The notes below the pieces were generated by a model. The model had not been told where the DNA came from and did no database searches. It saw only the letters and a program-made list of their open reading frames with translations. DNA of 64,000 bases from a virus. Lineage: Duplodnaviria > Heunggongvirae > Uroviricota > Caudoviricetes. A program made the translations under genes and the position numbers. Below are positions 1-35,718 of this stretch, one piece after another; position 1 is the stretch's first letter, and every line of letters begins with the position of its first letter. Location: the IMG/VR virus record IMGVR_UViG_3300031758_000005, one strand, 5' to 3'.

Positions 1-1
1 C

Positions 2-3000
2 CCAGCTACATCTCAATTTCCAACCAATGTAGGATCGACACAATATGCAACAAAATATATTGGATTGATTGGCGGATTAAATGATAAAAATGTAGACTAT
101 GGAGTACAAAAACTAAGTGATAGTTCACTTAAAGTGGTTAAAATGTCTCAAACAACCACACCATTTCCAAGTGGGTCATTGAGTAGCAGTGTAGATAGAG
201 TGTACGTAAATGTGCTTAATTACACAAACGTCAGTGTGACCAGCAGTTATGCTACAAATGCTTTGACCGCAAGTTATATATTGGGTGGAGGCGCAAATGG
301 TAGTAGTGGTACCAGTGGCGCAACAGGATCAAGTGGCACCAGTGGAAACAGTGGTACGAGTGGATCATCTGGTACTAGTGCCACTGCTGGTAGCAGCGGT
401 ACAAGTGGAGTTGGTTCACCTGGCACAAGTGGTACAGCAGGATCAAGTGGCACAAGCATCACTGCTAGTTTGCAAACAGGCAGTATTGCTAAACAAACTA
501 TATTATATAATGTTGTATCTGGTAGTCAGAATGTTATAACCGGTTTAAATTTGAGTGGTAACAAGTGGGGTGTAGATATCAAAGAAGAATGGGACGCTGT
601 AGTTGTACCAGGCGATCAATATTATAATAGTTGTAGCATATTATTACATTTAAATGGTTCAAATGGTAGTACTACATTCGTTGATAATGGTCCCAATAAC
701 TTAACTGTTACAGGAGCTGGTGCTTCTATTAGTACTGTGCAGAGTAAGTTCGGAGGAGCTAGTGCTGTATTTTCCGGGGGAAATGCAATAACTTGGCCAG
801 CTAGCAATTTATTTGCTTATGGATTGTTACCTTTTACCGTTGAATTCTGGGTATATCCAAATTCGGTATCTAGCGAATATATTTATGCGCAAACTAGACT
901 TGGTGATAATTATTTTTTAATAGGAATTGGAGGTGGTGTACTGTATTTAACATTTGGTGCTGGTGGAGGATCTTCAATATCAGGTGGATCTATATCTACT
1001 GGTACGTGGACCAATATCGCACTTGTAAGAGAAGGCACCGGAACAAATCAAACAAAGTTATATATAAACGGAACTCAGGTTGCAGCAGGTACGTGTAATT
1101 ATAATTTTTCCGATACTACTTTTGTACCAACTTTGGGTCGATACACACACACTTCGGCAAATGTATATAATGGATATGTAGATGAATTTCGTATAACCAA
1201 GGGAATTGCAAGATATACCAGTAACTTTACCCCACGAACATCCGAATTTCAAAATAATGTTGGTTTAACACAATATGCTACTAAATATGTAGGTTTGATT
1301 GGTGGTTTGAATGATAGAAGTGTAGATTACGGTGTGCAAAAATTAAGTGACAGTTCGCTTAAAGTGGTGAAGATGACACAAACCACATCGCCTTTTCCAA
1401 GTGGATCGCTTAGCTCATCAGTAGATAGGGTATATGTTAACGTGCTTAATTACACAAACGTCAGTGTAACTAGCAGTTATGCTACAAATGCTTTAACTGC
1501 AAGTTATATATTAGGTGGCGGGGCAAATGGCAGTAGTGGTACCAGTGGTGCAACTGGCGCAACTGGAACGTCAGGTACTTCAGGTAATAGTGGAAGTAGT
1601 GGAACAAGTGGTGGGGGTGCTTCATTAACAACTGGTAGTACGTATCCTATTACAAGCAGTTGGTCTCGTAGATCTTTAACAGCTAGTTATGCATTAAATG
1701 CTAGTGGTGGTGGGTCTTCACTTGCAGTTGGACAAACATTTGTAAGCAATGGTAGTCAAACTGTATATACTTTGAGTCAAACCGCAGCCAATAGAGATCA
1801 AATACTTGTTGTAACCAATGGTGTAGTTCAAAGCAGAAGTGGTAGCAATTATACTGTAAGCGGTACAACTTTAACTTTGAGTGACCCCGTTCAAAGTGGT
1901 GGATTGATTGATGTTCGATTTATAAATGCTGGTCAAGGTTCAAGTGGCACAAGCGGTGCAAATGGTACTGTTCAAACAGGTAGCATTGCTAAACAAACCA
2001 TATTATATAATGTAGTCTCAGGTAGTCAAAACGTAATTACCGGTTTGAATTTAAGCGGCAACAAGTGGGGTGTGGATATCAAAGAAGAATGGGATGCTGT
2101 AATTGTAGCCGGCGATCAATATTATAATAGCTGTAGTTTATTGATGCATTTTAATGGAAGTAATGGTAGTACTACATTTACTGATAATAGTAAAAATAAT
2201 TTTACAGTTACATCGGTTAATGGTACGGCTATAAGTACCGATCAAAGTAAATTTGGCGGTGCAAGTGTATATTTTGATGGTACAAATGACTATCTTTCTA
2301 TAACAAATAATTCAGCACTAAACTTATCGGGTGGGTCATATACAATAGAATGTTGGATTCGTCCAACAGGCAATTATTCTAATTATAGGCCTATAATTGC
2401 AAAAAGAATTCCAGGCACTGGTACCAGTGCCTGGCAAGTTTACTTAAGAGTTACCACAGGATATCTTAGTTATTTTAACGGAACTGAAATTGTATCATCT
2501 ACAACACCAACAGCAAATGTATGGAGTCACGTAGCTGCTGTTTATAATGGAACTACAATTAATTTATATTTAAATGGTGTAAGTGTTTTGTCAACTGCTG
2601 TAGGAAATTCAGACGTTGATGCGTCGATTAATATTGGAGCTTTTCCATCATTTGGCGAATATTTTATTGGTTATATAGATGAATTGAGAGTAACCAAAGG
2701 TATAGCTAGATATACTAGTAATTTTACACCGCCGACTTCTGAATTTCCAAATAATGCTAGTATAACGCAATATGCAACCAAATATGTTGGTTTGATTGGT
2801 GGTTTGAACGATAAAAGTGTAGATTACGGCGTACAGAAGTTGAGTGATAGTTCGCTTAAGGTGGTAAAGATGAGTCAAACCACATCGCCATTTCCAAGTG
2901 GATCATTGAGCAGCAGTGTGGATAGGGTGTATGTGAATGTGTTGGACTATAATAAAGTAAATGTGACCAGCAGTTATGCTACAAATGCTTTGACTGCTAG

Positions 3001-3775
3001 TTATTCTTTAAAAAGTGGTAATGCTCTAAGAACGGGTAGTTTGTATCCAATTACTGCTAGTAGAGCTGTTAGCAGCAGTTATTTACTTGGTGGAAGTCAA
3101 ATATTAACTGAGGATAAAACAGTATCATTTAGTAGTTCATTTACTACTGCACAAATTCAAGCATTGATTGATGTGCAACCAAGAAATTTAGGTAACAAAA
3201 CTTTAACATTTAAATTTGCTGATGGCAATTACAATTTATCCACAGGTTTGAGATTTTTTAATTTTTCTAATGGATCGATTTATATAAGTGGAAATTCTTC
3301 AAATAACACAGTAGCGTTTGCTAAAAATGTAACACTAAGTGGATCGGTTCCTATTTATATTTCTAATAATTCTACATATACAGAAGTAAATTATTTAAGA
3401 TTAGCAGTTAATACAAGTACGTATCAAACTGGATTGGTGATAGAAAATGGTAATGCAAATGTATATTATTGTTCGTTTACAAACCACCCAAGATCAGTTA
3501 CAGTCGGCTCTGGAAATGGTGTAATGACTCAAGCTGGAGGAACTGCTTGGGTAAGATACTGTTATTTTACTTCGATGGATAGATATATAGTTTCTTTATT
3601 CAACGGGATCATTACGGCTGATACAAATTCTCAAGGAACAAATTCAAATATTGCATATTTAGCATATGGGGGAATTATACAAGTACAAAATACAGGATTA
3701 ACAGCGGTAACAACTTATTCAACTAGTGTAGGTGGTTTAATTGTAAGACCTAGTGGAACAACAATAGGAACATAA
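2..3775 (+). CDS. Large tail-fiber/receptor-binding-like protein, 5'-truncated by the window edge. Layout: connector module, collagen-like GXY array, two LamG/concanavalin-like domains, connector modules, C-terminal beta-rich region.
   Basis: The frame stays open from nt 2 and the first residues (QYATKYIGLIGGLNDKNVDYG) match the internal connector module, so the true start lies upstream of the window. Ser/Thr-rich G-X-Y triplet arrays are present. Jelly-roll signatures are LLHxNGSNGSTTFxDNS...FDGxNDYL...YIDELRxTKGIARYTSNFTP. Confidence 0.7.
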   Translation, partial: PATSQFPTNVGSTQYATKYIGLIGGLNDKNVDYGVQKLSDSSLKVVKMSQTTTPFPSGSLSSSVDRVYVNVLNYTNVSVTSSYATNALTASYILGGGANGSSGTSGATGSSGTSGNSGTSGSSGTSATAGSSGTSGVGSPGTSGTAGSSGTSITASLQTGSIAKQTILYNVVSGSQNVITGLNLSGNKWGVDIKEEWDAVVVPGDQYYNSCSILLHLNGSNGSTTFVDNGPNNLTVTGAGASISTVQSKFGGASAVFSGGNAITWPASNLFAYGLLPFTVEFWVYPNSVSSEYIYAQTRLGDNYFLIGIGGGVLYLTFGAGGGSSISGGSISTGTWTNIALVREGTGTNQTKLYINGTQVAAGTCNYNFSDTTFVPTLGRYTHTSANVYNGYVDEFRITKGIARYTSNFTPRTSEFQNNVGLTQYATKYVGLIGGLNDRSVDYGVQKLSDSSLKVVKMTQTTSPFPSGSLSSSVDRVYVNVLNYTNVSVTSSYATNALTASYILGGGANGSSGTSGATGATGTSGTSGNSGSSGTSGGGASLTTGSTYPITSSWSRRSLTASYALNASGGGSSLAVGQTFVSNGSQTVYTLSQTAANRDQILVVTNGVVQSRSGSNYTVSGTTLTLSDPVQSGGLIDVRFINAGQGSSGTSGANGTVQTGSIAKQTILYNVVSGSQNVITGLNLSGNKWGVDIKEEWDAVIVAGDQYYNSCSLLMHFNGSNGSTTFTDNSKNNFTVTSVNGTAISTDQSKFGGASVYFDGTNDYLSITNNSALNLSGGSYTIECWIRPTGNYSNYRPIIAKRIPGTGTSAWQVYLRVTTGYLSYFNGTEIVSSTTPTANVWSHVAAVYNGTTINLYLNGVSVLSTAVGNSDVDASINIGAFPSFGEYFIGYIDELRVTKGIARYTSNFTPPTSEFPNNASITQYATKYVGLIGGLNDKSVDYGVQKLSDSSLKVVKMSQTTSPFPSGSLSSSVDRVYVNVLDYNKVNVTSSYATNALTASYSLKSGNALRTGSLYPITASRAVSSSYLLGGSQILTEDKTVSFSSSFTTAQIQALIDVQPRNLGNKTLTFKFADGNYNLSTGLRFFNFSNGSIYISGNSSNNTVAFAKNVTLSGSVPIYISNNSTYTEVNYLRLAVNTSTYQTGLVIENGNANVYYCSFTNHPRSVTVGSGNGVMTQAGGTAWVRYCYFTSMDRYIVSLFNGIITADTNSQGTNSNIAYLAYGGIIQVQNTGLTAVTTYSTSVGGLIVRPSGTTIGT
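2690..3000 (+). repeat. Connector module copy (~310 nt) ~90% identical to 5455-5770. Further copies at 29-300, 1262-1530 and a diverged copy at 8400-8650.
   Basis: Shared tataacgcaatatgcaaccaaatatgt(t/a)ggtttgattggtggtttgaa(c/t)gataaaagtgtagatta... encoding QYATKYVGLIGGLNDKSVDYGVQKLSDSSLKVVKMSQTTSPFPSGSLSSSVDRVYVNVLDY. Confidence 0.8.
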
Positions 3776-3779
3776 TTTT

Positions 3780-4073
3780 ATGATAGTACTATATAATGAT
3801 ATTACAGGTGATATTACACTCAAAGTGGTAGAAGGAACAGGTGATGCAGAACCAGGACCAGGACATTCTCGTATCATATTAAGTGATTGTGTGGGCAATG
3901 AAACAAATGTTAATCAAATTCCTAGTTTTGCATTAAGATTTTGTCAAGAAAATAGAAAAAAAGAATATCCTACTGTTAGTGAACAATTGGATTATATTTA
4001 TCATAATGGAATTGACGCGTGGAAAACTAACATAATTGACCCAATAAAACAAAAGTATCCAAAGCCAAGTTAA
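3780..4073 (+). CDS. Hypothetical protein (97 aa) between fiber genes
   Basis: ORF with an ATG start, tightly packed between two fiber genes on the same strand. Confidence 0.4.
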   Translation: MIVLYNDITGDITLKVVEGTGDAEPGPGHSRIILSDCVGNETNVNQIPSFALRFCQENRKKEYPTVSEQLDYIYHNGIDAWKTNIIDPIKQKYPKPS

Positions 4074-4076
4074 TTT

Positions 4077-6875
4077 ATGCCATTACTAAAAATATTACCA
4101 TCTTTAATATCTCAAGGATCTTTTACAGGATCTTTCAGTGGTACAGGCAGTTATGCTCGTAGAGCATTAACTGCGAGTTATGTATTAGGCGGAGCAGCTG
4201 GTTCATCAGGCACAAGTGGCGCAAATGGTACAAGTGGTAGTAGCGGAAGTAGTGGTGCAAATGGTACTAGTGGATCGTCTGGTACTAGTGCCACTGCTGG
4301 TAGTAGCGGCACAAGTGGTGTAGGTTCTCCAGGCACTAGTGGAACAGCAGGATCAAGTGGTACATCTGGTTCAAGTGGATCCAGTGGAAATAGTGGTACA
4401 AGCGGAAGCAGTGGTGCTACAGGCAGCAGTGGTACAAGTGGTGCTGGATCGCCAGGTAGTAGTGGTAGTAGTGGAACCAGTACCACTCCAGCTTTATCGT
4501 TGGGTCAAACTTATATAGGAAATGGTAGTACTACCACTTATGCTTTATCACAAAGTGTAGCTAATCGTGATCAAATATTGGTAAATGTAGATGGTGTGTT
4601 GCAAGGTAGAAGTGGTAATTATTATACTGTAAGTGGTACCACATTAACTTTAAGTTCCCCACCACAAAATGGTAGCATCATTGATATACGTTATATTAAC
4701 GGCGGAAGTGGTATTGTCACAACAGGTAGCTTAGCTAAGCAAACCATATTATACAATGTAGTCTCAGGCAGTCAAAACACTATAACCGGCTTAAATTTGA
4801 ACGGTAACAAGTGGGGTGTAGATATAAAAGAAGAGTGGGACGCTGTAATTATAGCTGGTGATCAATATTATAATAGTTGTAGTTTATTATTGCATTGTGA
4901 TGGTACAAATGGAAGCACCACATTCACTGATAATAGCAAAAATGTTTTAATTGTTACATCGGTTAATGGTACTGCAATTAGTACGGCGCAAAGTAAATTT
5001 GGTGGTGCTAGTGGATTATTTGATGGCACAAATGATTATCTTTCTATACCAGATAATGAATCCTTAGAACCAGGTACAAATAATTTGACTTGGGAGATGT
5101 GGATAAAAACTACAAGTAGTGTTCAATACGCTACTCTTTATTCTAGGACACCTTCTTCATTTGGCAGTGGTATGTGGTCGGTGATGATAAATCAGGCATC
5201 AAGCACTGCAGGTGATATTGCATTATATGTGGCTGATTATTCAGGTGTTGCACCTCTGTTATTAACAACGGGTGTAAGTATTAGAGACAATGCATGGCAT
5301 CATATTGCTATAGTAAGAAATGGTAGTGCGTGGGTGTGCTATGTTGATGGAACATCTCGTGCGACAGGCACTTTTAGTGGTAACATCGGTAATCTTAGTT
5401 CTGGTCCCAGAATAGGGGCGGACGAATTTTATGGTAGATATTTCAATGGTTATATAGATGAATTGAGAGTTACTAAAGGTATAGCTAGATATACTAGTAA
5501 TTTTACACCACAAACATCGGAATTTCCAAATAATGCTAGTATAACGCAATATGCAACCAAATATGTAGGTTTGATTGGTGGTTTGAATGATAAAAGTGTA
5601 GATTATGGTGTGCAGAAGTTGAGTGATAGTTCGCTTAAAGTGGTAAAGATGAGTCAAACTACATCGCCATTTCCAAGTGGATCATTGAGTTCATCTGTGG
5701 ACAGAGTGTATGTGAACGTATTGGATTATAGCAAAGTATATGTAACCAGCAGTTATTCGTTAAATTCAATTAATTCATTAGATATACCCAAAATAAAGTC
5801 AATTATATATACAAACAGTAGTTATACCCCAACCACAGCATCAGCTATAGATTTATTCAAACCCAATACCAGTTACATTACTATATCAGGTAGTAATTTT
5901 AAGCCCAGTGCATCTATATTTATAGATAATACGTCTGGATCAGTGGTTACATATGTGAATAGCAACAAACTTAATGTGAATGTAATTTCAAAAAATGAAG
6001 GTACTTATCCAATATATTTGATGAATACTGATGGTGCATCTGCATTTAAAATAAACGCTATAACATATATTACCAGCCAAGACCAATTTCAATATTTGGT
6101 TTTAGCAGGTGGAGGCGGCGGTGGACTTGCACACGCTGGTGGCGGAGGTGCGGGTGGTTTTCGTACTGGATCTTTAGGTTTGAATCGATCTGTACCATAC
6201 ACTGTTTCAGTTGGATCAGGAGGATCTAGCTCACCATCTAGATCCGTAAATGGAACCAATGGAGGCAACAGTGTATTTGCATCAATTACATCGATAGGTG
6301 GTGGCGGAGGAGGATCTGAATACAAACCGGCTAACCCAGGCGGTTCAGGTGGAGGTGGTGCAACCCAGGGTGCAGGTGGATCTGGAACTGTGTCACAAGG
6401 TAATAATGGTGGAGCTGGTAGTCCTACTAGTCCGCCATATGCTGGTGGTGGTGGTGGTGGTGCTGGTGCTATTGGCGGAAGTTATACTCCTGGTTCAGGA
6501 GGTAATGGTGGAAATGGACTTATATCTAATATTTCAAGCACTCCAATATATTATGCTGGCGGCGGAGGCGGCGGTGTATATGGTGGACAAGGTGGTGTCA
6601 CCAATCGCGGAACAGGTGGTCTAGGCGGAGGTGGAAATGGTAACTATGGAAATGGAAACGGATCTGCGGGCGAGGCGGCGCGTGGAGGAGGTGGCGGAGG
6701 TGGTGGATATCCAAATGAAAGTGCATATAATGGTGGATCAGGTATTGTAATTGTAAAATATTTATCTAGTAGAACTTTAACAATTGGGGTGGGTTTGACC
6801 TCATCGACTGTTATTACTGGGAGTTATAAAATTACTACGTTTACAGCTGGTTCAGACACAATAACAATTTCTTAA
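4077..6875 (+). CDS. Tail-fiber-like mosaic protein: collagen-like array, LamG-like domain, connector module, glycine-rich C-terminal domain
   Basis: The N-terminal half is ~85-90% nt-identical in blocks to the gene at 2..3775. The C-terminal 250 aa is Gly-rich (GGGGGG runs, ...GGSGIVIVKYLS) and resembles the C-terminal domains of the five paralogs at 23657..29509. Confidence 0.7.
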   Translation: MPLLKILPSLISQGSFTGSFSGTGSYARRALTASYVLGGAAGSSGTSGANGTSGSSGSSGANGTSGSSGTSATAGSSGTSGVGSPGTSGTAGSSGTSGSSGSSGNSGTSGSSGATGSSGTSGAGSPGSSGSSGTSTTPALSLGQTYIGNGSTTTYALSQSVANRDQILVNVDGVLQGRSGNYYTVSGTTLTLSSPPQNGSIIDIRYINGGSGIVTTGSLAKQTILYNVVSGSQNTITGLNLNGNKWGVDIKEEWDAVIIAGDQYYNSCSLLLHCDGTNGSTTFTDNSKNVLIVTSVNGTAISTAQSKFGGASGLFDGTNDYLSIPDNESLEPGTNNLTWEMWIKTTSSVQYATLYSRTPSSFGSGMWSVMINQASSTAGDIALYVADYSGVAPLLLTTGVSIRDNAWHHIAIVRNGSAWVCYVDGTSRATGTFSGNIGNLSSGPRIGADEFYGRYFNGYIDELRVTKGIARYTSNFTPQTSEFPNNASITQYATKYVGLIGGLNDKSVDYGVQKLSDSSLKVVKMSQTTSPFPSGSLSSSVDRVYVNVLDYSKVYVTSSYSLNSINSLDIPKIKSIIYTNSSYTPTTASAIDLFKPNTSYITISGSNFKPSASIFIDNTSGSVVTYVNSNKLNVNVISKNEGTYPIYLMNTDGASAFKINAITYITSQDQFQYLVLAGGGGGGLAHAGGGGAGGFRTGSLGLNRSVPYTVSVGSGGSSSPSRSVNGTNGGNSVFASITSIGGGGGGSEYKPANPGGSGGGGATQGAGGSGTVSQGNNGGAGSPTSPPYAGGGGGGAGAIGGSYTPGSGGNGGNGLISNISSTPIYYAGGGGGGVYGGQGGVTNRGTGGLGGGGNGNYGNGNGSAGEAARGGGGGGGGYPNESAYNGGSGIVIVKYLSSRTLTIGVGLTSSTVITGSYKITTFTAGSDTITIS
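5455..5770 (+). repeat. Connector module copy in the second fiber gene
   Basis: See 2690-3000. Confidence 0.8.
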
Positions 6876-6879
6876 AAAT

Positions 6880-7272
6880 ATGGCACATTACGCATTTTTA
6901 AATGAAGATTATGTAGTTACCGAAGTGATTGTCGGTAAAGACGAAAGACTTTTTGATTGGGAACATTATTATACAATTAAAAAGGGACAGATATGTAAAC
7001 GAACTAGTTATAATACTAAAGGGGGTATATATTATAATTCAATAACAAATTTACCAGATATCGATCAATCTAAATCATTTAGAAAAAATTTTGCTGGAAT
7101 TGGATTTAAATATGATATGAACTTAGATGCATTCATACCACCACAACCATATCCAAGTTGGATATTAAATGAACAAATCTGTAACTGGGAGTCACCAATA
7201 CCATATCCAACTGACGGACAATTTTATAATTGGGATGAAACAACACAATCTTGGATTTTAATTTCGGAATAA
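6880..7272 (+). CDS. Hypothetical protein (130 aa)
   Basis: ORF in the late block with a 4-nt gap to its neighbours. Confidence 0.5.
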   Translation: MAHYAFLNEDYVVTEVIVGKDERLFDWEHYYTIKKGQICKRTSYNTKGGIYYNSITNLPDIDQSKSFRKNFAGIGFKYDMNLDAFIPPQPYPSWILNEQICNWESPIPYPTDGQFYNWDETTQSWILISE

Positions 7273-7273
7273 T

Positions 7274-10200
7274 ATGTCATTACTTAAAATACGACCATAT
7301 CTAATTAATTCAGGTTCATTCACAGGATCTTTCAGTGGTACAGGCAGTTATGCTCGTAGAGCACTAACAGCTAGTTATGTATTGGGAGGCGCAGCTGGAT
7401 CCAGTGGCACAAGTGGCGCAAATGGTAGTAGCGGTACATCAGGCAATAGTGGCACAAGTGGAACAAGTGCTACTGCTGGTAGTAGTGGTACAAGCGGAGT
7501 TGGTTCGCCAGGCACAAGTGGCACGGCAGGATCCAGTGGTACAAGCAGTACCGCAACGGTGCAAACAGGCAGTATCGCGAAACAAACACTTTGGACCAAT
7601 GTAACCTCAGGTAGCACAAACACCATAACTGGACTAAGCTTAAGTAGCAACAAGTGGGATGTAAGTGTGGTGGAAGAATGGGATGCTGCGACATTGGATC
7701 AATATTATAACAGTTCTAGCTTATTGTGCCACTTTGATAGTTTGAATCCTGCGGGAAGATTTATTGATAGTAGCAGAAACAATTTTACGATTACTTCTAA
7801 CGGTGATTCTAGATTAAGCACTTCACAATATAAATTTGGAGGAGCAAGTGCATATTTTGATGGCACGGCTGATAATCTTTTAATTAACTATAATAACGCA
7901 TTTAATTTATCGGGTGATTTTACAATTGAAGTTTGGTTTTATCCGATTACTTTAAATGGTGGAATGATTTTAAATTTTGCAGGTGGATTGAATATAGCTT
8001 GGGCAAGTTACGAACTGGTTAATAACACAGATGGTATTAATTTCGCCGGTAGTTCTGCGAATAATGGATATGATATTGGTTCTGAAACAGGTGCTACTGG
8101 AAGAATAGGAACGGTTAGTGTAAATACTTGGAATCATATAGCAGTTACTAGACAAGGAAATGTATATAGAGGATATATTAACGGTGTTCAAGGTTACACA
8201 CAAACTTTGGCACTTACTCCATATAATCCAAACGCGAGAGGATTAGCAATAGGTAGTAATTATGCTACTACTTGGGGTGTTACACCAGCAACTGTTTTAA
8301 ATGGTTATTTAGACGAATTAAGAATTACCAAAGGTGTAGCTAGATATACTGCTAATTTTACCCCATCTAATGCACCATTTCCAAATTCAAGAAATCAAGT
8401 GCTTACAAAGTATGTAGGTTTGGTTGGTGGTATTGATGACAAGTATGTGGATTATGGAGTGCAAAAGTTGAGTGATAGTTCGCTTAAATTGACACGATTA
8501 ACTTATCCAAATCAACCTATAGTTGGTAGTGGGTCTTTAAGTGGTAGTGTGAATAGGGTATATGTAAATGTGCTTGATTATACAAAGGTTAGTGTAACGA
8601 GCAGTTATTCATTATTATCTAAGACTGCTAGTTATGCTTTAAATGCTTCTGGTGGGGGTGGTAGTACATTAAGAACAGGTAGTTTGTATCCTATAACTGC
8701 TAGTTGGTCACGTAGAGCTATTACGGCTAGTTATGCGTTGAATGGTGGTACTGCTCTTGTAAATCAAACATTGAATTATGTGAGTGGTAGTAATTTATAT
8801 ACTTTAAGCAGAAGCGTAGTTTCCCCCAGTGATGTGTTGTTGAGTGTAAATGGTATTATACAAACACCCATAACAGATTATACTGTAAGTGCTAGTAAAG
8901 TTACATTTACAGAAAGTTATCCTTCGGGTAGTAAAATTAATGCTAGATATTTGGTAACTGCTACAAATAGTAGTGATGTTAATTTAGCCAATATAGTATT
9001 GACAGGCACAACAACAGGTGATGCTTATTATCCACAAGTTGCTGCATTGTTACACTTTGATGGTGTAAATGGTAGTACCACTATAACAGACAATAGCAAA
9101 AATAACTTAACTGTTACTTCAGTTAATGGCACTGCCATAAGCACTGCGCAAAGTAAATTTGGTGGTGCAAGTGTATTGTTTGACGGTACGAACGATTATC
9201 TTTCTATAGCAAGCAATTCAGTATTTGACTTACTTGGAGATTATACGATTGAATTTTGGGCATATAGTTCAAATTTTGCAGCCGGTAATATGGGATATTT
9301 ACACAGAGGATTTTATACTACGGGTACAGCCACTTGGTCAGGACTATCATTTTCAATTAGAGGACTTAGCACATTAATAAGATTTTATTTTTATGCAACT
9401 ACATCTGCGAATGAACAAAAAATAGATGTATCTCTTCCATCTAATAATGCATGGCATCATTTTGCAATGGTAAAATCAGGTACAACTGGTACAGTTTATG
9501 TAGATGGAACATTAGCAGGAACAATTACTTCATTAAATACACCTGCGGCTAGTTCACAAACTTTGAGAATAGGAGTATGGGATTATAGTGCTGCATCAGA
9601 ATATTTTAACGGTTATATAGATGAATTGCGAATAACGAATGGGTATGCAAGATATACCGGTAATTTTACGCCATCTACCACTGCATTTTCTAATACTGGT
9701 GGTGATGTAGGTAAATCGTTGGTAGTAAATAGTACTGCTACAGGTGTTAGTATTGGTACCGCTGGTTTTAATTTAAATTCTAGCAATATTAATCGTATTA
9801 TTAATGGTGCTATGGCAGTTGACCAAAGAAATGCTGGTGCAGCACAAACAATTACTGCTGCGGCTGCATTAGCTTATACAGTGGATAGATGGTATGCATA
9901 TTGTACTGGGGCTAATGTTACTGGACAAAGAATCACTGGTTCGGCTAATAATCAATTTGCTTATAGATTTACAGGTGCGGCTAGTGTTACTGCTATTGGA
10001 TTTGGACAAAGAATAGAAGCGGCTAATAGTATTGATTTGGCAGGATCTACTGCAACACTTGGTGTAGATTTGGCTAATAGTGTATTGACTAGTGTAACTT
10101 GGACGGCTTATTATGCTAATACTTCGGATACATTTGGTACATTGGCAAGTCCAACTAGAACACAAATATCGACGGGTACATTTACTGTAACTAGTACATT

Positions 10201-10690
10201 GACTAGATATAGCGCACAAATATTTATTCCATCAGCGGCTATTACAGGTCTTGAAATTGTATTTAGTGTTGGTGCTCAAACATCTGGTACTTGGACTATA
10301 GACAATGTTCAATTAGAAGCAGGTCCATTAGCAACACCATTTGAAAGACGCATGATTGGACAAGAATTAATATTGTGTCAAAGATATTTTGCATCTATTA
10401 ATGGAGCTATAGGTGCAGGTAGCGAATTAAATACATCAGCTGCATATATAAAACTACCATTGTCTGTTACGATGCGAGCAGATAATCAAACCGTCACATT
10501 ATCAACAGGAAATTCTATATCAGTTGATTTATTTGGTACCGGTACATCAACTACTTCTACCAGCAATGTAACTATCACTGCGAATCGAGCCGGTATACTT
10601 TTTAATATTAACAGTTTATCACCATCACAAGGAGCAACTGGTGTACCCGCAACAATTTTAGGAACTGTTTCGGTTTCATCCGAATTATAA
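7274..10690 (+). CDS. Tail-fiber-like protein with a collagen-like array, two diverged LamG-like domains and a diverged connector module
   Basis: N-terminus MSLLKIRPYLINSGSFTGSFSGTGSYARRALTASYVLGG is paralogous to the N-terminus of the gene at 4077. It carries FDGTxDxL...YLDELRITKGVARYT jelly-roll motifs. Confidence 0.7.
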   Translation: MSLLKIRPYLINSGSFTGSFSGTGSYARRALTASYVLGGAAGSSGTSGANGSSGTSGNSGTSGTSATAGSSGTSGVGSPGTSGTAGSSGTSSTATVQTGSIAKQTLWTNVTSGSTNTITGLSLSSNKWDVSVVEEWDAATLDQYYNSSSLLCHFDSLNPAGRFIDSSRNNFTITSNGDSRLSTSQYKFGGASAYFDGTADNLLINYNNAFNLSGDFTIEVWFYPITLNGGMILNFAGGLNIAWASYELVNNTDGINFAGSSANNGYDIGSETGATGRIGTVSVNTWNHIAVTRQGNVYRGYINGVQGYTQTLALTPYNPNARGLAIGSNYATTWGVTPATVLNGYLDELRITKGVARYTANFTPSNAPFPNSRNQVLTKYVGLVGGIDDKYVDYGVQKLSDSSLKLTRLTYPNQPIVGSGSLSGSVNRVYVNVLDYTKVSVTSSYSLLSKTASYALNASGGGGSTLRTGSLYPITASWSRRAITASYALNGGTALVNQTLNYVSGSNLYTLSRSVVSPSDVLLSVNGIIQTPITDYTVSASKVTFTESYPSGSKINARYLVTATNSSDVNLANIVLTGTTTGDAYYPQVAALLHFDGVNGSTTITDNSKNNLTVTSVNGTAISTAQSKFGGASVLFDGTNDYLSIASNSVFDLLGDYTIEFWAYSSNFAAGNMGYLHRGFYTTGTATWSGLSFSIRGLSTLIRFYFYATTSANEQKIDVSLPSNNAWHHFAMVKSGTTGTVYVDGTLAGTITSLNTPAASSQTLRIGVWDYSAASEYFNGYIDELRITNGYARYTGNFTPSTTAFSNTGGDVGKSLVVNSTATGVSIGTAGFNLNSSNINRIINGAMAVDQRNAGAAQTITAAAALAYTVDRWYAYCTGANVTGQRITGSANNQFAYRFTGAASVTAIGFGQRIEAANSIDLAGSTATLGVDLANSVLTSVTWTAYYANTSDTFGTLASPTRTQISTGTFTVTSTLTRYSAQIFIPSAAITGLEIVFSVGAQTSGTWTIDNVQLEAGPLATPFERRMIGQELILCQRYFASINGAIGAGSELNTSAAYIKLPLSVTMRADNQTVTLSTGNSISVDLFGTGTSTTSTSNVTITANRAGILFNINSLSPSQGATGVPATILGTVSVSSEL

Positions 10691-10696
10691 AATTTT

Positions 10697-11794
10697 ATGG
10701 CAACCAAACCTTTTTTATCACAAATCGCAGTACCTGTTGGAACAACAACAGGTGATGTTTATTATCCACAAACCAGCTTATTGATGCATTTTAATGGTAC
10801 AAATGGTAGTACCACTATGACAGATAATAGCAAAAATAACTTAACTGTTACTTCAGTTAATGGCGCTGCCATAAGTACTGCACAAAGCAAATTCGGCGGC
10901 AGTAGCGTATTATTTGACGGTACAAATGATTATTTAACTACTAATACAAATGCTAATTTAGCACTAGAAAGTGCAAATTTTACAATTGAGGGTTGGTTTT
11001 ATTTTATTGACGGCACGGCTAATTCACTTCGTCCTGTTTTAGGTAATTATTCGTTATTTTCGTCTAATAGTATTTATTTTGGAAAACACACATCTTATGG
11101 TGGTAAAATGGCACTTTGGATTGGTAACTATTCTGCCAACAATGCATTGTTGGCAGATCCAACTGATCTTACAAATAATCAATGGATACATTTTGCTATA
11201 GTGAGAAATGGTTCAAATTGGACAATGTATAGAGATGGGGTAAGTGTTACAACTGTTACGTATAGTGGTGTAACAAGTACAACAAATTTCTTTTATATAG
11301 GAGCTAGTGGTGATGGATATTATTTTAATGGTTATATAGATGAATTAAGAATTACCAAAGGTATTGCAAGATATACCAGTAATTTTACGCCATCTACCAC
11401 GCAATTTTTAGATAGTGCGGGTGATGCAAATAGTAGTGTAGTGGTTAATAGTACTGCAACAGGATTTGCAATAGGAACAGGTGGTATAAATGGCGCACAA
11501 TTAGCAAAAGCTTGGGTCAACTTTAATGGAACAGGTACTGTAGCTATAAGAGATAGTTATAATGTAAGTAGCATAACAGATTTAGGGGTGGGTGAATATA
11601 CAGTTAATTTTAGTACCGCATTAAATAATACAAATTATTGTGCTGTGGGGTCTTCTAGAATTGTTGTTGGGTCTAGAACTAGTGTAATCGGATTTACAAA
11701 TTATACAACTACAAGTGTAAGAATCGGTGTAATTAATTTAACAAATAGTGTTCAAGATGAAGATACTAACTGTGTATCTATATTTAGCAATTGA
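10697..11794 (+). CDS. LamG-like domain protein (365 aa). Its N-terminal ~65 aa duplicate an internal module of the preceding gene.
   Basis: nt 10745-10945 are ~88% identical to nt 9010-9210. FDGTNDYL and YIDELRITKGIARYTSNFTP motifs are present. Confidence 0.65.
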   Translation: MATKPFLSQIAVPVGTTTGDVYYPQTSLLMHFNGTNGSTTMTDNSKNNLTVTSVNGAAISTAQSKFGGSSVLFDGTNDYLTTNTNANLALESANFTIEGWFYFIDGTANSLRPVLGNYSLFSSNSIYFGKHTSYGGKMALWIGNYSANNALLADPTDLTNNQWIHFAIVRNGSNWTMYRDGVSVTTVTYSGVTSTTNFFYIGASGDGYYFNGYIDELRITKGIARYTSNFTPSTTQFLDSAGDANSSVVVNSTATGFAIGTGGINGAQLAKAWVNFNGTGTVAIRDSYNVSSITDLGVGEYTVNFSTALNNTNYCAVGSSRIVVGSRTSVIGFTNYTTTSVRIGVINLTNSVQDEDTNCVSIFSN

Positions 11795-12039
11795 AATTAA
11801 CTATATATAAGAGTATGAGTGAAAAACGAATAATATACCCAACGGAAAATGGTGGAGTTGCTATAATAATTCCATCCATAAGTGCAAAAAATTCCAATGA
11901 AACTTATGATGAATTTATTGAACGAATTGCTGCAAAAGATGTACCCGCAGCAACATCATATAAAATTGTGCCGGTAGAAGATATACCAACAGATAGAACA
12001 TTCAGAAACGCCTGGGAATATCCAACAGATACACTATAA
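11791..12039 (+). CDS. Hypothetical protein (82 aa)
   Basis: ORF whose start overlaps the stop of the preceding gene by 4 nt. Confidence 0.45.
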   Translation: MKLTIYKSMSEKRIIYPTENGGVAIIIPSISAKNSNETYDEFIERIAAKDVPAATSYKIVPVEDIPTDRTFRNAWEYPTDTL

Positions 12040-12043
12040 TTTT

Positions 12044-12292
12044 ATGATAACCATAAACCTTGATAAAGCCAAAGAAATACAAAAAAATAGATGGAGAACC
12101 GCAAGAAAACCTATCTTAGAAAAATTAGATACACAATTTATGCGTGCTGTTGAAACCGGAGACACAGCCAAACAACAACAAATCGCAACACAAAAACAAG
12201 CACTAAGAGATGTTACAACCACCGATTTATCATCCGTAACTACCCCAGACCAATTAAAAACAATTTGGCCAAGTATATTAAACGAATCATAA
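12044..12292 (+). CDS. Hypothetical protein (82 aa)
   Basis: ORF, tightly packed. Confidence 0.45.
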   Translation: MITINLDKAKEIQKNRWRTARKPILEKLDTQFMRAVETGDTAKQQQIATQKQALRDVTTTDLSSVTTPDQLKTIWPSILNES

Positions 12293-12295
12293 TTT

Positions 12296-12979
12296 ATGTA
12301 CTATAGCCCACGAATAGTCACAAGCGGTTTGGTATTGGCACTAGATGCAGCTGAACGTCTTAGCTATCCTCGCACAGGCACAACGTGGCGTGATTTAAGC
12401 GGTAATAGTAACAATGGCACATTAACCAATGGTCCTACTTTTAGCGCGGGTAATATGGGTAGTATAGTTTTCGATGGTGTGGATGATTATGTTAATATGG
12501 GCACAAGCACTTATTGTAATCTTATTAATATAAGTGTTTCTGTTTGGGTAAGAGTCACTAGTGCAAGTGGATATTTTTTGGGTAGATATAATAACATTAC
12601 TGCTTTTAATGGGTTTATTATGTATTATGATGTAGCATCAACTAAATTTGGTGTTGGTGGTAGAGAATCGAGCGCCACATATTTAAATAGTGCAACGATA
12701 AATACATATCCGTTAAATAACTGGTATAATTTTACCTGGACAAAATCCGCAAATGTTTGGTCGCTTTATGTTAATGGTTCTTTAGATGTATCATCTGCAC
12801 TTGGAAATGGAACCACACCATATTCAAATAATACTATGTGGCTTGGCGCAAATAATGAAGGCGGTACCCAATATTATTCCGGTGGAAATTTATCTAATGT
12901 TTTTATATACAACAGAACAATAACTGCCGTTGAAGTATTGCAAAATTATAACGCAACTAAAAGTAGATTTGGTAGATAA
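12296..12979 (+). CDS. Small LamG/concanavalin-like protein, tandem paralog 1 of 3
   Basis: Shares N-terminus PRIVTSGLVLALDAAERLSYP...WRDLSGNSNNGTLTNGPTFSAGN...FDGVDDY and C-terminus IYNRTITAVEVLQNYNATKSRFG with the next two genes. Confidence 0.65.
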   Translation: MYYSPRIVTSGLVLALDAAERLSYPRTGTTWRDLSGNSNNGTLTNGPTFSAGNMGSIVFDGVDDYVNMGTSTYCNLINISVSVWVRVTSASGYFLGRYNNITAFNGFIMYYDVASTKFGVGGRESSATYLNSATINTYPLNNWYNFTWTKSANVWSLYVNGSLDVSSALGNGTTPYSNNTMWLGANNEGGTQYYSGGNLSNVFIYNRTITAVEVLQNYNATKSRFGR

Positions 12980-12990
12980 TTATAGTATAT

Positions 12991-13695
12991 ATGTCTGGTA
13001 TATCAGGACCCAAAATAATTACAAGTGGATGTGTTTTATCACTAGATGCAGCTGATAAAAACAGTTATCCTGGTAGCGGCACAGCTTGGCGAGATTTGAG
13101 TGGTAATGGAAAAAATCTCACATTAACAAACGGTCCTACATTTAGTGCTGGTAATCAAGGTAGTATAGTTTTTGATGGTACAAATGATTATGCGGTTTTG
13201 AATCCAGTATCTGCATTTAATATATACTGTATTAGTATGTGGTTTAAACCAACAACAATAATTAATTCTACATCGGCTTATAAACCTTTAATTCATTTCA
13301 AAAGTAGTACTGCTAAATATATAAGTTTTGGCGATACAACAAACCGTGTTGCGAATGAATATATTACTATTGTACAAGAACCAGGTGACAGAAGAACGGC
13401 TGTTAACGATGGAGGGTCTTTATCTGCTGGTGTCTGGTATAATGTTGTTTTTAACTACGAAAGTTCTAAATACAATATTTATATAAATAATACATTAAAA
13501 AGTACAACTATTGGTTCTTCTTTAGGTGATGTCCCATTAATAACAGATCCAGATTTTATATATTTAAATTCTTATGAAGGAGTTTCTGGATATTTAGATA
13601 GTTCATTATCTATATGTACGATTTATAACAGAACATTAACCGCATCTGAATTATTACAAAATTATAACGCAGTTAAAAATAGATTTGGATTATAA
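12991..13695 (+). CDS. Small LamG/concanavalin-like protein, tandem paralog 2 of 3
   Basis: Same N- and C-terminal signature. The conserved upstream junction is taattatagtatat. Confidence 0.65.
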   Translation: MSGISGPKIITSGCVLSLDAADKNSYPGSGTAWRDLSGNGKNLTLTNGPTFSAGNQGSIVFDGTNDYAVLNPVSAFNIYCISMWFKPTTIINSTSAYKPLIHFKSSTAKYISFGDTTNRVANEYITIVQEPGDRRTAVNDGGSLSAGVWYNVVFNYESSKYNIYINNTLKSTTIGSSLGDVPLITDPDFIYLNSYEGVSGYLDSSLSICTIYNRTLTASELLQNYNAVKNRFGL

Positions 13696-13704
13696 TTATA
13701 GTAT

Positions 13705-14415
13705 ATGGGAATAGCCAGAGGTCCAAAAATTGTAACAAGCGGTTTATTATTAGCACTAGATGCGGCCGATAAAAACAGTTACGCTGGTAGCGGCACAGCT
13801 TGGCGAGATTTGAGTGGTAATAGTAATAATGGCACATTGACAAATGGACCTACATTTAGTGCGGGTAATCAAGGAAGTATCGTTTTTGATGGCACAAATG
13901 ATTACGTTGATACAGTTAATACCGGAACAACTTTTCAATTTGCAAATGTCACATTTACTGTGAGTTTATGGATAAAAACAAGCGCTACAAGTGGTGTTAT
14001 TATTTCTAAAGGTGCAACTGCTTCTACGGCAGGTTGGCTGTTTCAATTTAACTCCGAAGGAACAGTTTCTGGTACTACAAAAGGTTCTGATGGTACTAAT
14101 ACTTATAACAGAGCAAGCACAGCAACAGTCAATAATAATACTTGGAGAAATATAGTATCAGTATATACAACTAATACAACAACTCTTGCGAGTAATACAA
14201 CATCAATATATATAGATGGTGTTTTAAGTAATGGTACAGGTACATTAGGCGGATTAGTATATGCGACAACTACAGATACTGTTCAAATAGGTAGAAGACC
14301 TTCCGGTGCTTATTGGTCCGGCTCTGTATCTAATTTATTGATATACAACAGAGCATTAACCGCAACAGAAATCTTACAAAACTATAACGCAACAAAAGGT
14401 AGATACGGACTATAA
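13705..14415 (+). CDS. Small LamG/concanavalin-like protein, tandem paralog 3 of 3
   Basis: Same signature, with a diverged middle region. Confidence 0.65.
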   Translation: MGIARGPKIVTSGLLLALDAADKNSYAGSGTAWRDLSGNSNNGTLTNGPTFSAGNQGSIVFDGTNDYVDTVNTGTTFQFANVTFTVSLWIKTSATSGVIISKGATASTAGWLFQFNSEGTVSGTTKGSDGTNTYNRASTATVNNNTWRNIVSVYTTNTTTLASNTTSIYIDGVLSNGTGTLGGLVYATTTDTVQIGRRPSGAYWSGSVSNLLIYNRALTATEILQNYNATKGRYGL

Positions 14416-24835: not shown

Positions 24836-24847
24836 ATAATTATTTAT

Positions 24848-25972: not shown

Positions 25973-25985
25973 TATTTAATAATAT

Positions 25986-27020: not shown

Positions 27021-27037
27021 AATATTTATAAAGTTAT

Positions 27038-28279: not shown

Positions 28280-28285
28280 AATTTT

Positions 28286-29509: not shown

Positions 29510-29874
29510 GAGATAAAATTATAATATATAGCGTTCATGACAAAACGAGCAGAGAATTTGTTGCTGCATATGGTAACAGAAACGACGTTACTGTGTTGGA
29601 AGATGACGGATATAGTGTTCGAATAAAATATCCATACATTAGTGCTTTTCCAACTGTAATAATAAATACACCTTCATATACGGAGTCTTTTATTGTAGAT
29701 GAAGGTGGAGGCGGTGCATTTGTAAATTTAGATTCTATTGGAAATGAAACAATAGTGCCAGAAGATGTAGAATATATTAGATCTCCTAAAGATTGGAATG
29801 AAGTACAACAACGTATTGATTATTGGGAAAACAAAGTGCCCAATTGGAAACAAACTGATACTAGATATTTATGA
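29506..29874 (+). CDS. Hypothetical protein, copy A of a duplicated gene flanking the modification cassette
   Basis: N-terminus MRDKIIIYSVHDKTSREFVAAYGNRNDVTVLEDDG and C-terminus IDYWENKVPNWKQTDTRY are shared with 31140..31469. Confidence 0.5.
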   Translation: MRDKIIIYSVHDKTSREFVAAYGNRNDVTVLEDDGYSVRIKYPYISAFPTVIINTPSYTESFIVDEGGGGAFVNLDSIGNETIVPEDVEYIRSPKDWNEVQQRIDYWENKVPNWKQTDTRYL

Positions 29875-34383: not shown

Positions 34384-34571
34384 TTACTTACATTCTCTGG
34401 TCCATTTGATGTATGAATACCCAAATACTTTACCTTGGTCAAATCCATAGGCATCTTGATGCGTTTCCAATCCCATAGGGCTGGTAGATCACTATCATCA
34501 ACAGCTTCCCATTCAATTTCCAATACAATTTTAGCAGATTTAGTTTTATTATTCATAACTTTCACGGTCAA
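34368..34571 (-). CDS. Hypothetical protein (67 aa)
   Basis: ORF. Confidence 0.4.
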   Translation of the reverse strand: MTVKVMNNKTKSAKIVLEIEWEAVDDSDLPALWDWKRIKMPMDLTKVKYLGIHTSNGPENVSNWMGN

Positions 34572-35708: not shown

Positions 35709-35718
35709 TTGGTGTGGT

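What the first reader, a model, noticed from the sequence alone, without database searches (positions are those of the whole stretch)
1..14415. Mosaic locus of giant fiber genes assembled from exchangeable modules with near-identical nucleotide junctions
Four consecutive genes (2..3775, 4077..6875, 7274..10690, 10697..11794) and three small tandem paralogs (12296..14415) are built from the same parts. These are collagen-like GXY arrays, LamG/concanavalin-type jelly rolls and a ~270-nt connector encoding QYATKYVGLIGGLNDKSVDYGVQKLSDSSLKVVKM...VDRVYVNVLDY. The connector occurs five times at ~90% nt identity (29-300, 1262-1530, 2690-3000, 5455-5770 and a diverged copy at 8400-8650). Within the LamG units the N-terminal half and the C-terminal YIDELRVTKGIARYTSNFTP segment are conserved at nt level. 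The central ~300 nt, which likely form the ligand-facing loops, are hypervariable (compare 2330-2640 with 5050-5400). Gene 10697..11794 begins with a copy of an internal segment of the previous gene (9010-9210 versus 10745-10945). The pattern is that of constant recombination handles flanking variable specificity cores, so the locus looks like a cassette-exchange system for host range that works without a reverse transcriptase.
Basis: seen in the sequence. Interest (0 to 1): 0.62.

Follow-up and report, generated by a model that had tools for sequence, protein, structure and literature searches.

The report
Mosaic lectin-domain phage tail fibres
This is a cluster of long tail-fibre genes from an uncultivated environmental phage, built from repeated lectin-like (LamG) units whose variable middles have been swapped between positions and between related phages by ordinary recombination; it is a clear example of a well-known way for phages to vary their host-binding proteins.

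Summary
The repeats are real. g1 to g3 are strings of one super-unit: GXY collagen-like run, a 49-aa beta module, a LamG jelly roll and a ~85-aa connector. g4 and p1-p3 hold a LamG domain only. Each large gene ends in a different tip domain followed by small genes.

Only one connector pair is 90.6% identical. The others are 77-82%, and the diverged copy is 69-72%. Synonymous sites of the paralogous connectors are near saturation (dS 0.5-1.8, dN/dS 0.04-0.27), so conservation inside this genome is at the protein level.

The exchange idea holds across the population. In 91 related environmental contigs, 161 distinct LamG units fall into 48 core types, and 13 types occur in more than one framework. 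Some unit pairs have both flanks at least 95% identical but unrelated cores. Units that share a core have lower core dS (0.26) than flank dS (0.48-0.54).

The window differs from its closest relative in a patchwork of 97-100% blocks and unalignable blocks. There is no reverse transcriptase, A-biased mismatch, invertase, inverted repeat or silent cassette. The genotype is 99.99-100% identical in five samples.

Verdict: an ordinary recombinational tail-fibre mosaic of the T-even gp37/gp38 kind, built from a new module family.

The parts
2..3775 (+). g1, fibre gene cut at its 5' end by the window edge. The part in the window reads CONN-GXY-P-LamG-CONN-GXY-DUF4183-like-P-LamG-CONN-tip CT1. The full gene is 1761 aa with the N-terminal anchor and three LamG units.
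32..277 (+). Connector copy 0 (QYATKYIGLIGG...VYVNVLNY...SSYATNALTASY)
1262..1507 (+). Connector copy of unit U1a
2759..3004 (+). Connector copy of unit U1b. It is 90.65% identical to the g2 copy over 2659-2977 versus 5438-5756.
5538..5765 (+). Connector copy of unit U2 (g2). It is closer to the U1b connector (88%) than to its positional orthologue in L001 (72%).
8384..8632 (+). Diverged connector copy of unit U3a (g3), 69-72% nt identity to the others
614..1249 (+). LamG domain U1a; variable core 863-1165 (core type 20)
2114..2746 (+). LamG domain U1b; variable core 2369-2662 (core type 4). The core is replaced in L001 and L002.
4860..5525 (+). LamG domain U2; variable core 5115-5441 (core type 6). 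The same core type occurs in g4-like and CT3-tipped proteins elsewhere.
7697..8380 (+). LamG domain U3a; variable core 7949-8296 (core type 23, 97% aa identical in L001)
9020..9688 (+). LamG domain U3b (no P module or connector); variable core 9272-9604 (core type 7). The core is replaced in L001 although the flanks are 98-100% identical.
10754..11407 (+). LamG domain of g4; variable core 11009-11323 (core type 14). The core differs in all 10 other g4 alleles.
467..613 (+). Pre-LamG beta module P (TGSIAKQT...KEEWD). Further copies lie at 1967-2113, 4713-4859 and 7556-7696.
290..457 (+). Proline-free GXY (collagen-like) runs of g1. Others lie at 1520-1618, 4191-4448 and 7388-7546. Run length differs among orthologues.
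4077..6875 (+). g2, fibre gene: NT anchor-GXY-GXY-DUF4183-like-P-LamG-CONN-Ig-like-Gly_rich_2 tip (CT2, 5793-6872)
7274..10690 (+). g3, fibre gene: NT anchor-GXY-P-LamG-CONN-LamG-tip CT3 (9674-10687; PHROG 4492 tail fiber protein, E 3.7e-37)
10697..11794 (+). g4, short fibre protein: conserved 5' island (10697-10837), LamG, stalk, hypervariable tip CT4 (about 11580-11791; PHROG 11355 tail fiber protein, E 1.2e-17)
3032..3772 (+). Tip domain CT1 of g1 (no Pfam or PHROG match). Wherever it is found it is followed by a g1b homologue.
3780..4073 (+). g1b, a 97-aa gene that accompanies tip CT1 in L029, L040 and L082. Putative tip-specific assembly factor (inferred).
6880..7272 (+). g2b, a 130-aa gene that follows the CT2 tip in L001 and L002 (PHROG 7759, function unknown)
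11791..12292 (+). s1 and s2, two 82-aa genes that follow CT4-tipped genes. s2 has weak matches to tail-fibre assembly or chaperone families, below the cut-offs.
12296..14415 (+). p1-p3, three tandem 227-236-aa LamG-only proteins (38-43% aa identity to each other). Like 63 non-identical relatives, they have conserved ends and a variable core.

Best explanation
The locus encodes several fibres of a large uncultivated environmental phage, most likely trimeric tail fibres. g1, g2 and g3 share a ~38-aa N-terminal anchor. Each is a string of nodes: a GXY run, a 49-aa beta module, a lectin-like LamG jelly roll and an ~85-aa connector. The connector ends in an SSYAxxALTASY motif that resembles the sequence just before the first GXY run. 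Each fibre ends in a different tip domain, followed by one or two small genes that travel with that tip.

Diversity arises by general homologous recombination during co-infection, and occasionally by ectopic recombination between paralogous positions. Crossovers fall in the protein-conserved LamG N-terminal part, in the LamG C-terminal motif with the connector, and in the 5' island of g4. These events replace LamG cores, whole LamG domains, connectors, tips or whole units, so the phage population shares a pool of at least 48 LamG core types.

Shown: the module anatomy, the LamG fold, the mosaic pattern and the discordant synonymous divergence. Inferred: trimer formation, glycan or receptor binding by LamG, a chaperone role for the small genes, and an effect on host range.
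For: Anatomy:
- The repeated modules and their order are seen.
- Laminin_G_3 matches every gene.
- The AF2 model of the LamG part has pLDDT 83-95. Foldseek matches ConA-like lectin domains (BoNT/TeNT Hc-N, AbnA domain 4, PAPP-A, perlecan LG3) at probability 1.0.
- PHROG tail-fibre families match CT3 and CT4, and the neighbouring g6 is a collagen tail-fibre protein.

Exchange:
- Window versus L001: of 84 windows of 100 nt, 27 are at least 97% identical and 10 are below 60%. Dispersion is 22 times binomial.
- The cores of U1b, U3b and g4 and the g4 tip are replaced between flanks that are 98-100% identical. Identity falls in steps inside the LamG N-terminal part.
- 161 non-identical units give 48 core clusters. 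Core identity is bimodal: below 40% or at least 60%.
- 25 unit pairs have cores at least 80% aa identical but handles at most 70%.
- 13 of 48 core types occur in more than one framework.
- 51 pairs have P at least 95% nt identical but different cores, and 12 pairs have CONN at least 95% identical but different cores. Several pairs have both.
- Within core types, core dS is 0.26 against 0.48 and 0.54 in the flanks, and core dN/dS is 0.34.
- The 11 g4 alleles share a 98-100% identical 5' end and an 89-94% stalk, but have unrelated cores and tips.
- Proteins from the large protein database carry the window's g4 frame with the g2-type core.
- Unit number differs among orthologues, and the L002 gene looks like a g1/g2 fusion across a connector.
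- The window's g2 connector is closest to the U1b connector, not to its own orthologue.
- Tips and their small downstream genes travel together.
Against: - No experiment or virion data exist. The tail-fibre assignment rests on family annotations that are themselves mostly predicted.
- The GXY runs have no proline and miss the Pfam Collagen cut-off.
- The P module, the connector and tip CT4 were modelled with low confidence as monomers.
- Paralogous handles inside the window share exact matches of only 8-47 nt and have dS 0.5-1.8. Recent exchange within this genome is therefore at most rare.
- Most relatives are short metagenome contigs, so linkage between distant positions could be affected by strain mixing during assembly.
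- The host is unknown.
Confidence: 0.8

Rival explanations
1. The repeats are only structural. The connectors and LamG ends are conserved because the fibre needs them, the genes diverge by point mutation, and no cassette exchange takes place.
For: Paralogous connectors have near-saturated synonymous sites (dS 0.5-1.8) and low dN/dS of 0.04-0.27. Internal handles show no peak of synonymous conservation across the population.
Against: - Blocks 98-100% identical lie next to unalignable cores between close relatives.
- The same core type occurs in different frameworks.
- Core dS is half the flank dS within core types.
- Unit number varies among orthologues.
Confidence: 0.03
2. A programmed switching system within one genome moves cassettes during infection, by gene conversion from donor copies or by site-specific inversion. 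Models are pilE/pilS, vlsE, Mu Gin, P1 Cin and shufflons.
For: Many paralogous units lie in tandem. The LamG C-terminal segment plus connector of U1b and U2 are more alike (dS 0.50-0.54) than the rest of those units (0.86-0.99). The g2 connector looks converted from a U1b-type copy.
Against: - All genes are full-length ORFs on one strand.
- There are no inverted repeats longer than 28 nt.
- No recombinase lies in or beside the locus.
- p1-p3 have no nucleotide similarity to g1-g4.
- The locus is 99.99-100% identical in contigs from five samples, which argues against frequent switching.
Confidence: 0.04
3. Targeted hypermutation, by a diversity-generating retroelement or similar, creates the variable cores in place.
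For: The variation is sharply local inside a ligand-binding fold, and the flanks are conserved.
Against: - Cores differ by indels and sit at 15-35% aa identity, in strands as much as in loops.
- Within a core type dN/dS is 0.34.
- The closest repeat pair has 23 of 31 mismatches at third codon positions and no A bias.
- No template-repeat/variable-repeat pair was found.
- No RT was found among the scanned window ORFs of 280 aa or more; g10, g11 and g13 were covered only through scanned paralogs. Only 64 kb of the genome is visible.
Confidence: 0.02
4. The mosaic pattern is an artefact of metagenome assembly, which joins co-occurring strains at conserved segments.
For: Alleles share identical flanks of 100 nt or more, which is where assemblers can switch strains. 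Most related contigs are short.
Against: - The window's arrangement is reproduced at 99.99-100% over 2.8-20 kb in independent assemblies from five samples. L001 and L007 gave the same hit table although they come from different samples.
- An assembler can re-link real alleles but cannot invent 48 core types, nor place a core between flanks it never had.
- Exact matches between paralogous units in the window are 47 nt or less.
Confidence: 0.05
5. The proteins are virion-surface fibres but not receptor-binding tail fibres. They could be head or collar fibres, or general adhesins that hold the phage on particles or mucus-like glycans.
For: No baseplate or tail genes are identified in the window. 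Proteins with several LamG domains along a fibre are not a classic tail-fibre design. CT1 and the connector have no annotated relatives.
Against: - CT3 and CT4 match PHROG tail-fibre families, at E 3.7e-37 and 1.2e-17.
- g2 has a weak match to the phage T7 tail-fibre N-terminal domain.
- s2 has weak matches to tail-fibre assembly families.
- The strong allelic turnover is typical of host-recognition proteins.
Confidence: 0.12

Closest known systems
T-even phage distal tail-fibre locus (gp37/gp38 adhesins). [quoted passage not shown] 1996 and 1998).
   Same: Variable specificity segments lie between conserved segments that also form the structural core. Exchanges occur within or near the conserved motifs. 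Each variable position draws on a restricted palette of variants that are re-used in different combinations.
   Different: There is no sequence relationship. Here the variable element is about 100 aa of a LamG jelly roll, or the whole domain, rather than short omega loops. Several such domains sit along each of several fibres, and cores move between internal and terminal positions. Nothing here is shown experimentally.
[quoted passage not shown]
   Same: Domains of the host-recognition protein are separated by collagen-like repeats. The variable region clusters by host rather than by phage lineage.
   Different: Those phages are siphoviruses with a single antireceptor gene and a different fold. 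In the present locus the crossovers were located in the LamG ends and connectors. GXY run length also varies, but GXY runs were not shown to be the crossover sites.
[quoted passage not shown]
   Same: Conserved anchor and stalk parts carry swapped distal binding modules, and recombination at the population level maintains the diversity.
   Different: Those cases involve terminal depolymerase or tip domains. Here the exchange also affects internal lectin domains and half-domains.
Diversity-generating retroelements (survey: PMC5758913)
   Same: Variation is focused on a ligand-binding domain of a phage fibre inside a constant scaffold.
   Different: There is no RT, no template repeat and no adenine-specific substitution. 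The variants are discrete, old, indel-bearing alleles under purifying selection.

Membership tests
Laminin_G_3 / concanavalin A-like lectin jelly roll | Significant match to Pfam PF13385 above its gathering score | tested here: met
   All seven proteins score 58-125 bits against a 27.6-bit cut-off.
Laminin_G_3 / concanavalin A-like lectin jelly roll | Beta-sandwich fold similar to solved ConA-like/LamG domains | tested here: met
   The AF2 model has pLDDT 83-95 over the LamG part. Foldseek finds BoNT/TeNT Hc-N, AbnA domain 4, PAPP-A and perlecan LG3 at probability 1.0 and E from 3e-8 to 4e-6.
Laminin_G_3 / concanavalin A-like lectin jelly roll | Binds carbohydrate or another ligand | not testable with these tools
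   Needs recombinant protein and binding assays.
Collagen-like triple-helix proteins (PF01391) | Uninterrupted Gly-X-Y runs | tested here: met
   Runs of 5-14 triplets occur in g1, g2 and g3.
Collagen-like triple-helix proteins (PF01391) | Match to Pfam Collagen above its gathering score | tested here: not met
   g1 scores 20.7 bits and g3 24.6 bits against a 27.2-bit cut-off. The runs are Ser/Thr/Ala-rich and lack proline. The neighbouring g6 does pass, at E 7.5e-50.
Collagen-like triple-helix proteins (PF01391) | Forms a trimeric triple helix | not testable with these tools
   Only monomer prediction was available.
Recombinational tail-fibre mosaics of the T-even gp37/gp38 kind (a mode of evolution, not a protein family) | The proteins are tail fibres or adhesins | tested here: inconclusive
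   PHROG tail-fibre families match CT3, CT4 and g6. There are no virion data.
Recombinational tail-fibre mosaics of the T-even gp37/gp38 kind (a mode of evolution, not a protein family) | Hypervariable segments lie between conserved segments | tested here: met
Recombinational tail-fibre mosaics of the T-even gp37/gp38 kind (a mode of evolution, not a protein family) | The same variable segment occurs in different backgrounds, different segments occur in the same background, and breakpoints fall in the conserved parts | tested here: met
Recombinational tail-fibre mosaics of the T-even gp37/gp38 kind (a mode of evolution, not a protein family) | Exchange changes receptor or host specificity | not testable with these tools
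   Needs isolates and adsorption assays.
gp37/gp38 protein families themselves | Sequence homology to T-even gp37 or gp38 | tested here: not met
   No such family appeared in the Pfam or PHROG scans of the locus. No nucleotide match exists in 50,697 phage records.
Diversity-generating retroelement | A reverse transcriptase gene near the target | tested here: not met
   No RT was found among the window ORFs of 280 aa or more that were scanned with Pfam; g10, g11 and g13 were covered only through scanned paralogs. The rest of the genome was not seen.
Diversity-generating retroelement | A template/variable repeat pair that differs at adenines | tested here: not met
   The best repeat pair is 90.65% identical, with 23 of 31 mismatches at third codon positions and every substitution type present.
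Invertible host-range segments (Mu Gin, P1 Cin, shufflons) | Inverted repeats flank cassettes on opposite strands, with an adjacent invertase | tested here: not met
   All ORFs are on the + strand. Only three short inverted repeats were found (22-28 nt, two of them 75-79% complementary). The 22-nt pair is not kept in relatives.
Silent-cassette gene conversion (pilE/pilS, vlsE type) | Promoterless partial cassettes share nucleotide-identical flanks with an expression site | tested here: not met
   p1-p3 are complete ORFs with ATG starts and have no nucleotide match to g1-g4. The genotype is stable across samples.

The most novel reading that the evidence does not exclude
The conserved handles are kept partly because they act as crossover sites. 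The clearest case is the 141-nt island at the 5' end of g4, which is identical or one base different in 10 of 11 alleles, while the sequences on either side are unrelated. On this reading the locus has been shaped by selection for evolvability. The population would hold a combinatorial library of at least 48 lectin cores and several tips that co-infecting phages reassort at high frequency. That would be a counterpart of a diversity-generating system that needs neither a reverse transcriptase nor a dedicated recombinase.
Probability: 0.12. Interest if true: 0.65.

Novelty: new member of a known kind. Interest (0 to 1): 0.4.

Why it matters
The locus gives a large natural data set on how host-recognition modules are reassorted in wild phage populations: 161 units, 48 core types and several frameworks. 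It shows that crossovers can fall inside a single lectin fold, so that half of a jelly roll is exchanged. It also defines a connector module that has no Pfam or PDB match and only 79 representatives among 1.84 billion proteins. If a host is found, the conserved frames could serve as scaffolds for swapping binding cores. The principle itself is textbook phage biology.

Tried and rejected
- Nucleotide searches of the locus and of the replication region against 50,697 phage records found nothing. One query was over the length limit.
- The best cultured relatives of the RNA ligase are at most 45% identical, so neither a phage group nor a host could be named.
- A scan of 185,579 species genomes for the connector found no relative. 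There are no tRNA genes in the window.
- A profile of the LamG C-terminal motif plus the connector has no match in PDB sequences.
- The AF2 model of g4 was too poor over the stalk and tip (pLDDT 31-63) to use for fold search. The P module and connector were also poorly modelled.
- One script timed out and one failed on a motif; both were rerun.
- A 22-nt inverted repeat that brackets g3 was checked and is not conserved in relatives.
- A DGR, an invertible segment and silent-cassette conversion were each considered and rejected (see the membership tests).
- Literature searches found no description of this module family.
Full report
OBSERVATION. The window carries, all on the + strand and tightly packed, the following genes:
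- g1 (2..3775, open at the window edge) and a 97-aa gene
- g2 (4077..6875) and a 130-aa gene
- g3 (7274..10690)
- g4 (10697..11794) and two 82-aa genes
- three 227-236-aa paralogs, p1-p3 (12296..14415)

Pfam Laminin_G_3 matches all seven larger proteins, with E from 4.6e-36 to 1.4e-15. g2 also has a Gly_rich_2 tip. The GXY runs score just below the Pfam Collagen cut-off. Self-comparison confirms the five connector copies, the shared LamG ends and the match of 9005-9199 to 10739-10933 at 84.7%.

One connector pair is 90.65% identical, the others are 77-82%, and the g3 copy is 69-72%. p1-p3 share only the fold with g1-g4, at 21-29% aa identity and with no nucleotide match.

ANATOMY. Alignment of the units gives a super-unit:
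- a GXY run
- a 49-aa module P (TGSIAKQT...KEEWD)
- a LamG domain of about 210 aa
- a connector of about 85 aa (QYATKYVGLIGG...VYVNVLDY...SSYAxxALTASY)

g2 and g3 share a 38-aa N-terminal anchor, and the full g1 on L106 carries it too. Part of the anchor sequence recurs at the end of each connector, just before the next GXY run. The tips differ:
- CT1 has no annotated relatives.
- CT2 is an Ig-like part plus a glycine-rich domain.
- CT3 matches PHROG 4492, tail fiber protein.
- CT4 matches PHROG 11355, tail fiber protein.

g1b follows CT1 wherever CT1 occurs. g2b follows CT2. s1 and s2 follow CT4-tipped genes. s2 has weak, sub-threshold matches to tail-fibre assembly families.

STRUCTURE. An AF2 model of unit U2 is confident for the LamG part (pLDDT 83-95) but not for P or the connector. 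Foldseek places the LamG part among ConA-like lectin domains. The variable core covers 109 residues of the unit, of which 57 are in strands. Variability is the same in strands and non-strands. The variable part is therefore the central half of the sandwich and not a set of loops.

WITHIN THE GENOME. Nei-Gojobori estimates for the paralogous connectors give dS 0.50-1.76 and dN/dS 0.04-0.27. The P module and the LamG ends behave alike, and the cores are 15-34% aa identical. The longest exact matches between paralogous units are 8-47 nt. Inside this genome the conservation is therefore protein-level purifying selection on old duplicates.

There is one partial exception. The LamG C-terminal segment plus connector of U1b and U2 have dS 0.50-0.54, against 0.86-0.99 in the rest of those units. 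In line with this, the g2 connector is 88% identical to the U1b connector but only 72% identical to its positional orthologue in L001. That points to an ectopic exchange.

RELATIVES. No cultured phage is close. IMG/VR holds 11 related contigs, and the metagenome collection returned 80 of 144 relatives, one of them on a 295,831-bp contig.

Exact look-ups place the window on, or next to, JGI contig Ga0315903_10000336 (69,694 bp). They also find the same locus at 99.99-100% identity in contigs from five samples. The full g1 is 1761 aa with three LamG units. Another trio of small LamG genes and another large LamG gene lie upstream of the window.

EXCHANGE BETWEEN RELATIVES. Against the closest distinct relative, L001, the colinear 8.4 kb is a patchwork. 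Of 84 windows of 100 nt, 27 are at least 97% identical, 10 are below 60%, and dispersion is 22 times binomial. The cores of U1b, U3b and g4 and the g4 tip are unalignable between flanks that are 98-100% identical. On the left side identity falls in steps inside the LamG N-terminal part, and on the right it returns at the LamG C-terminal motif.

The L001 g3 orthologue has one extra unit. The L002 gene joins a g1-like N-terminal part to the g2 tip across a connector.

POPULATION EVIDENCE. Across all contigs:
- 245 complete units reduce to 161 non-identical ones and 48 core clusters, with bimodal core identity.
- 25 unit pairs share a core (at least 80% aa) but have background-level handles (at most 70%).
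- 13 of 48 core types occur in more than one framework. The window's own core types 4, 6, 7 and 14 all appear elsewhere in other positions.
- When the contexts differ, the similar block is the whole LamG domain of about 650 nt.
- 51 unit pairs have P at least 95% identical but different cores, and 12 pairs have the connector at least 95% identical but different cores. Several pairs have both. Left change points scatter through the LamG N-terminal part, and right ones lie 3-33 nt into the C-terminal motif.
- For 179 pairs that share a core type, dS is 0.26 in the core but 0.48 and 0.54 in the flanks. This synonymous-site signal shows separate histories. Core dN/dS is 0.34, so the cores are stable functional alleles and not products of hypermutation.
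- Eleven g4 alleles share a 98-100% identical first 120 nt and an 89-94% identical stalk, but have unrelated cores and tips.
- Database proteins carry the window's g4 frame with the g2-type core.
- The small LamG proteins show the same pattern of conserved ends and a variable core.

HANDLES AT THE NUCLEOTIDE LEVEL. Across 753-4579 unit pairs with different cores, identical-codon use at conserved residues is flat along P, the LamG ends and the connector, at about 50-79% per bin. The internal handles are therefore not specially conserved as DNA.

The first 141 nt of g4 are the exception. They are identical or one base different in 10 of 11 alleles, with dS 0.028 against 0.19 in the stalk. Allele L081 carries nine synonymous changes there, so such changes are tolerated. 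Homogenisation by recombination or a nucleotide-level constraint could each explain this. It remains unresolved.

ALTERNATIVES.
- DGR: rejected. The changes are not A-biased and include indels, and no RT or template repeat was seen.
- Inversion or silent-cassette systems: rejected. All genes are on one strand, there are no useful inverted repeats and no recombinase, p1-p3 are unrelated at the DNA level, and the genotype is stable across samples.
- Assembly chimerism cannot create the core diversity, and the window's arrangement is reproduced independently. It could still blur long-range linkage in short contigs.

COMPARISON AND VERDICT. The behaviour matches the known evolution of tail-fibre adhesins by recombination within or near conserved motifs. 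The T-even gp37/gp38 locus is the model (PMC3157838). The S. thermophilus antireceptor, with collagen-like repeats and the variable region VR2, is a second parallel (PMC5601072). There is no sequence homology to those proteins.

The module family is new. The connector has no Pfam or PDB match and only 79 representatives among 1.84 billion proteins. No description was found in the searchable literature.

The finding is real and the exchange reading is largely right at the population level. It is not a dedicated system. I rate it a new member of a known kind, of moderate interest.

Noticed in passing
window 10697-10837: The first ~141 nt of g4 are identical or one base different in 10 of 11 non-identical alleles (dS 0.028 against 0.19 in the stalk). 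The sequence just upstream is unrelated in most of them, and the LamG core further downstream is unrelated in all. Allele L081 has nine synonymous changes there. The cause, recombinational homogenisation or a nucleotide-level constraint, is open.
   Followed up: partly
window 17208-20831: g6 is a 1207-aa genuine collagen-repeat protein (Pfam Collagen E 7.5e-50, nine stretches) that matches many PHROG tail-fibre families. The fibre region therefore extends well beyond 14415.
   Followed up: partly
window 23657-29509: Five tandem paralogs (g9-g13, 344-413 aa, 32-70% aa identity to each other) match the GXY-rich regions of g2 and g6. They have no Pfam family.
   Followed up: no
window 15454-15966: Six head-to-tail copies of a 57-nt (19-aa) repeat lie inside g5 (14733..17183, 816 aa), which has no Pfam or PHROG match.
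   Followed up: no
window 38053-38760: A Mom-family protein (Pfam PF25680, E 5.8e-44), which suggests a DNA base modification.
   Followed up: no
window 55533-57342: A GIY-YIG, I-TevI-like endonuclease gene on the + strand overlaps the 3' end of thyA on the - strand. ThyA is 383 aa against a 266-position profile, so it carries insertions. This looks like a free-standing homing endonuclease beside thyA.
   Followed up: no
window 34549-48231: A nucleic-acid repair set: an ATP-dependent DNA ligase (34549..35646), an Rnl2-like RNA ligase with a PHA02142 OB domain (41012..42064), a T4 Rnl1-like RNA ligase (47140..48231) and an SPFH/Band 7 protein (42447..43352).
   Followed up: no
window 7220-7241 and 10673-10694: A 22-nt inverted repeat, 95% complementary, brackets g3. 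The complementarity is not kept in relatives, so it is probably chance.
   Followed up: yes
L106 1-4665 (upstream of the window start on a 100%-identical contig): A second trio of small LamG genes (243, 219 and 217 aa) and another large LamG/connector protein lie upstream of g1. In one search the window's p3 best matches a gene of L001's upstream trio, at 80% nt, which hints at exchange between the two arrays.
   Followed up: partly
window 29871-30545: A sulfotransferase-like protein (Pfam Sulfotransfer_1, E 3.3e-6) sits at the end of the structural block.
   Followed up: no
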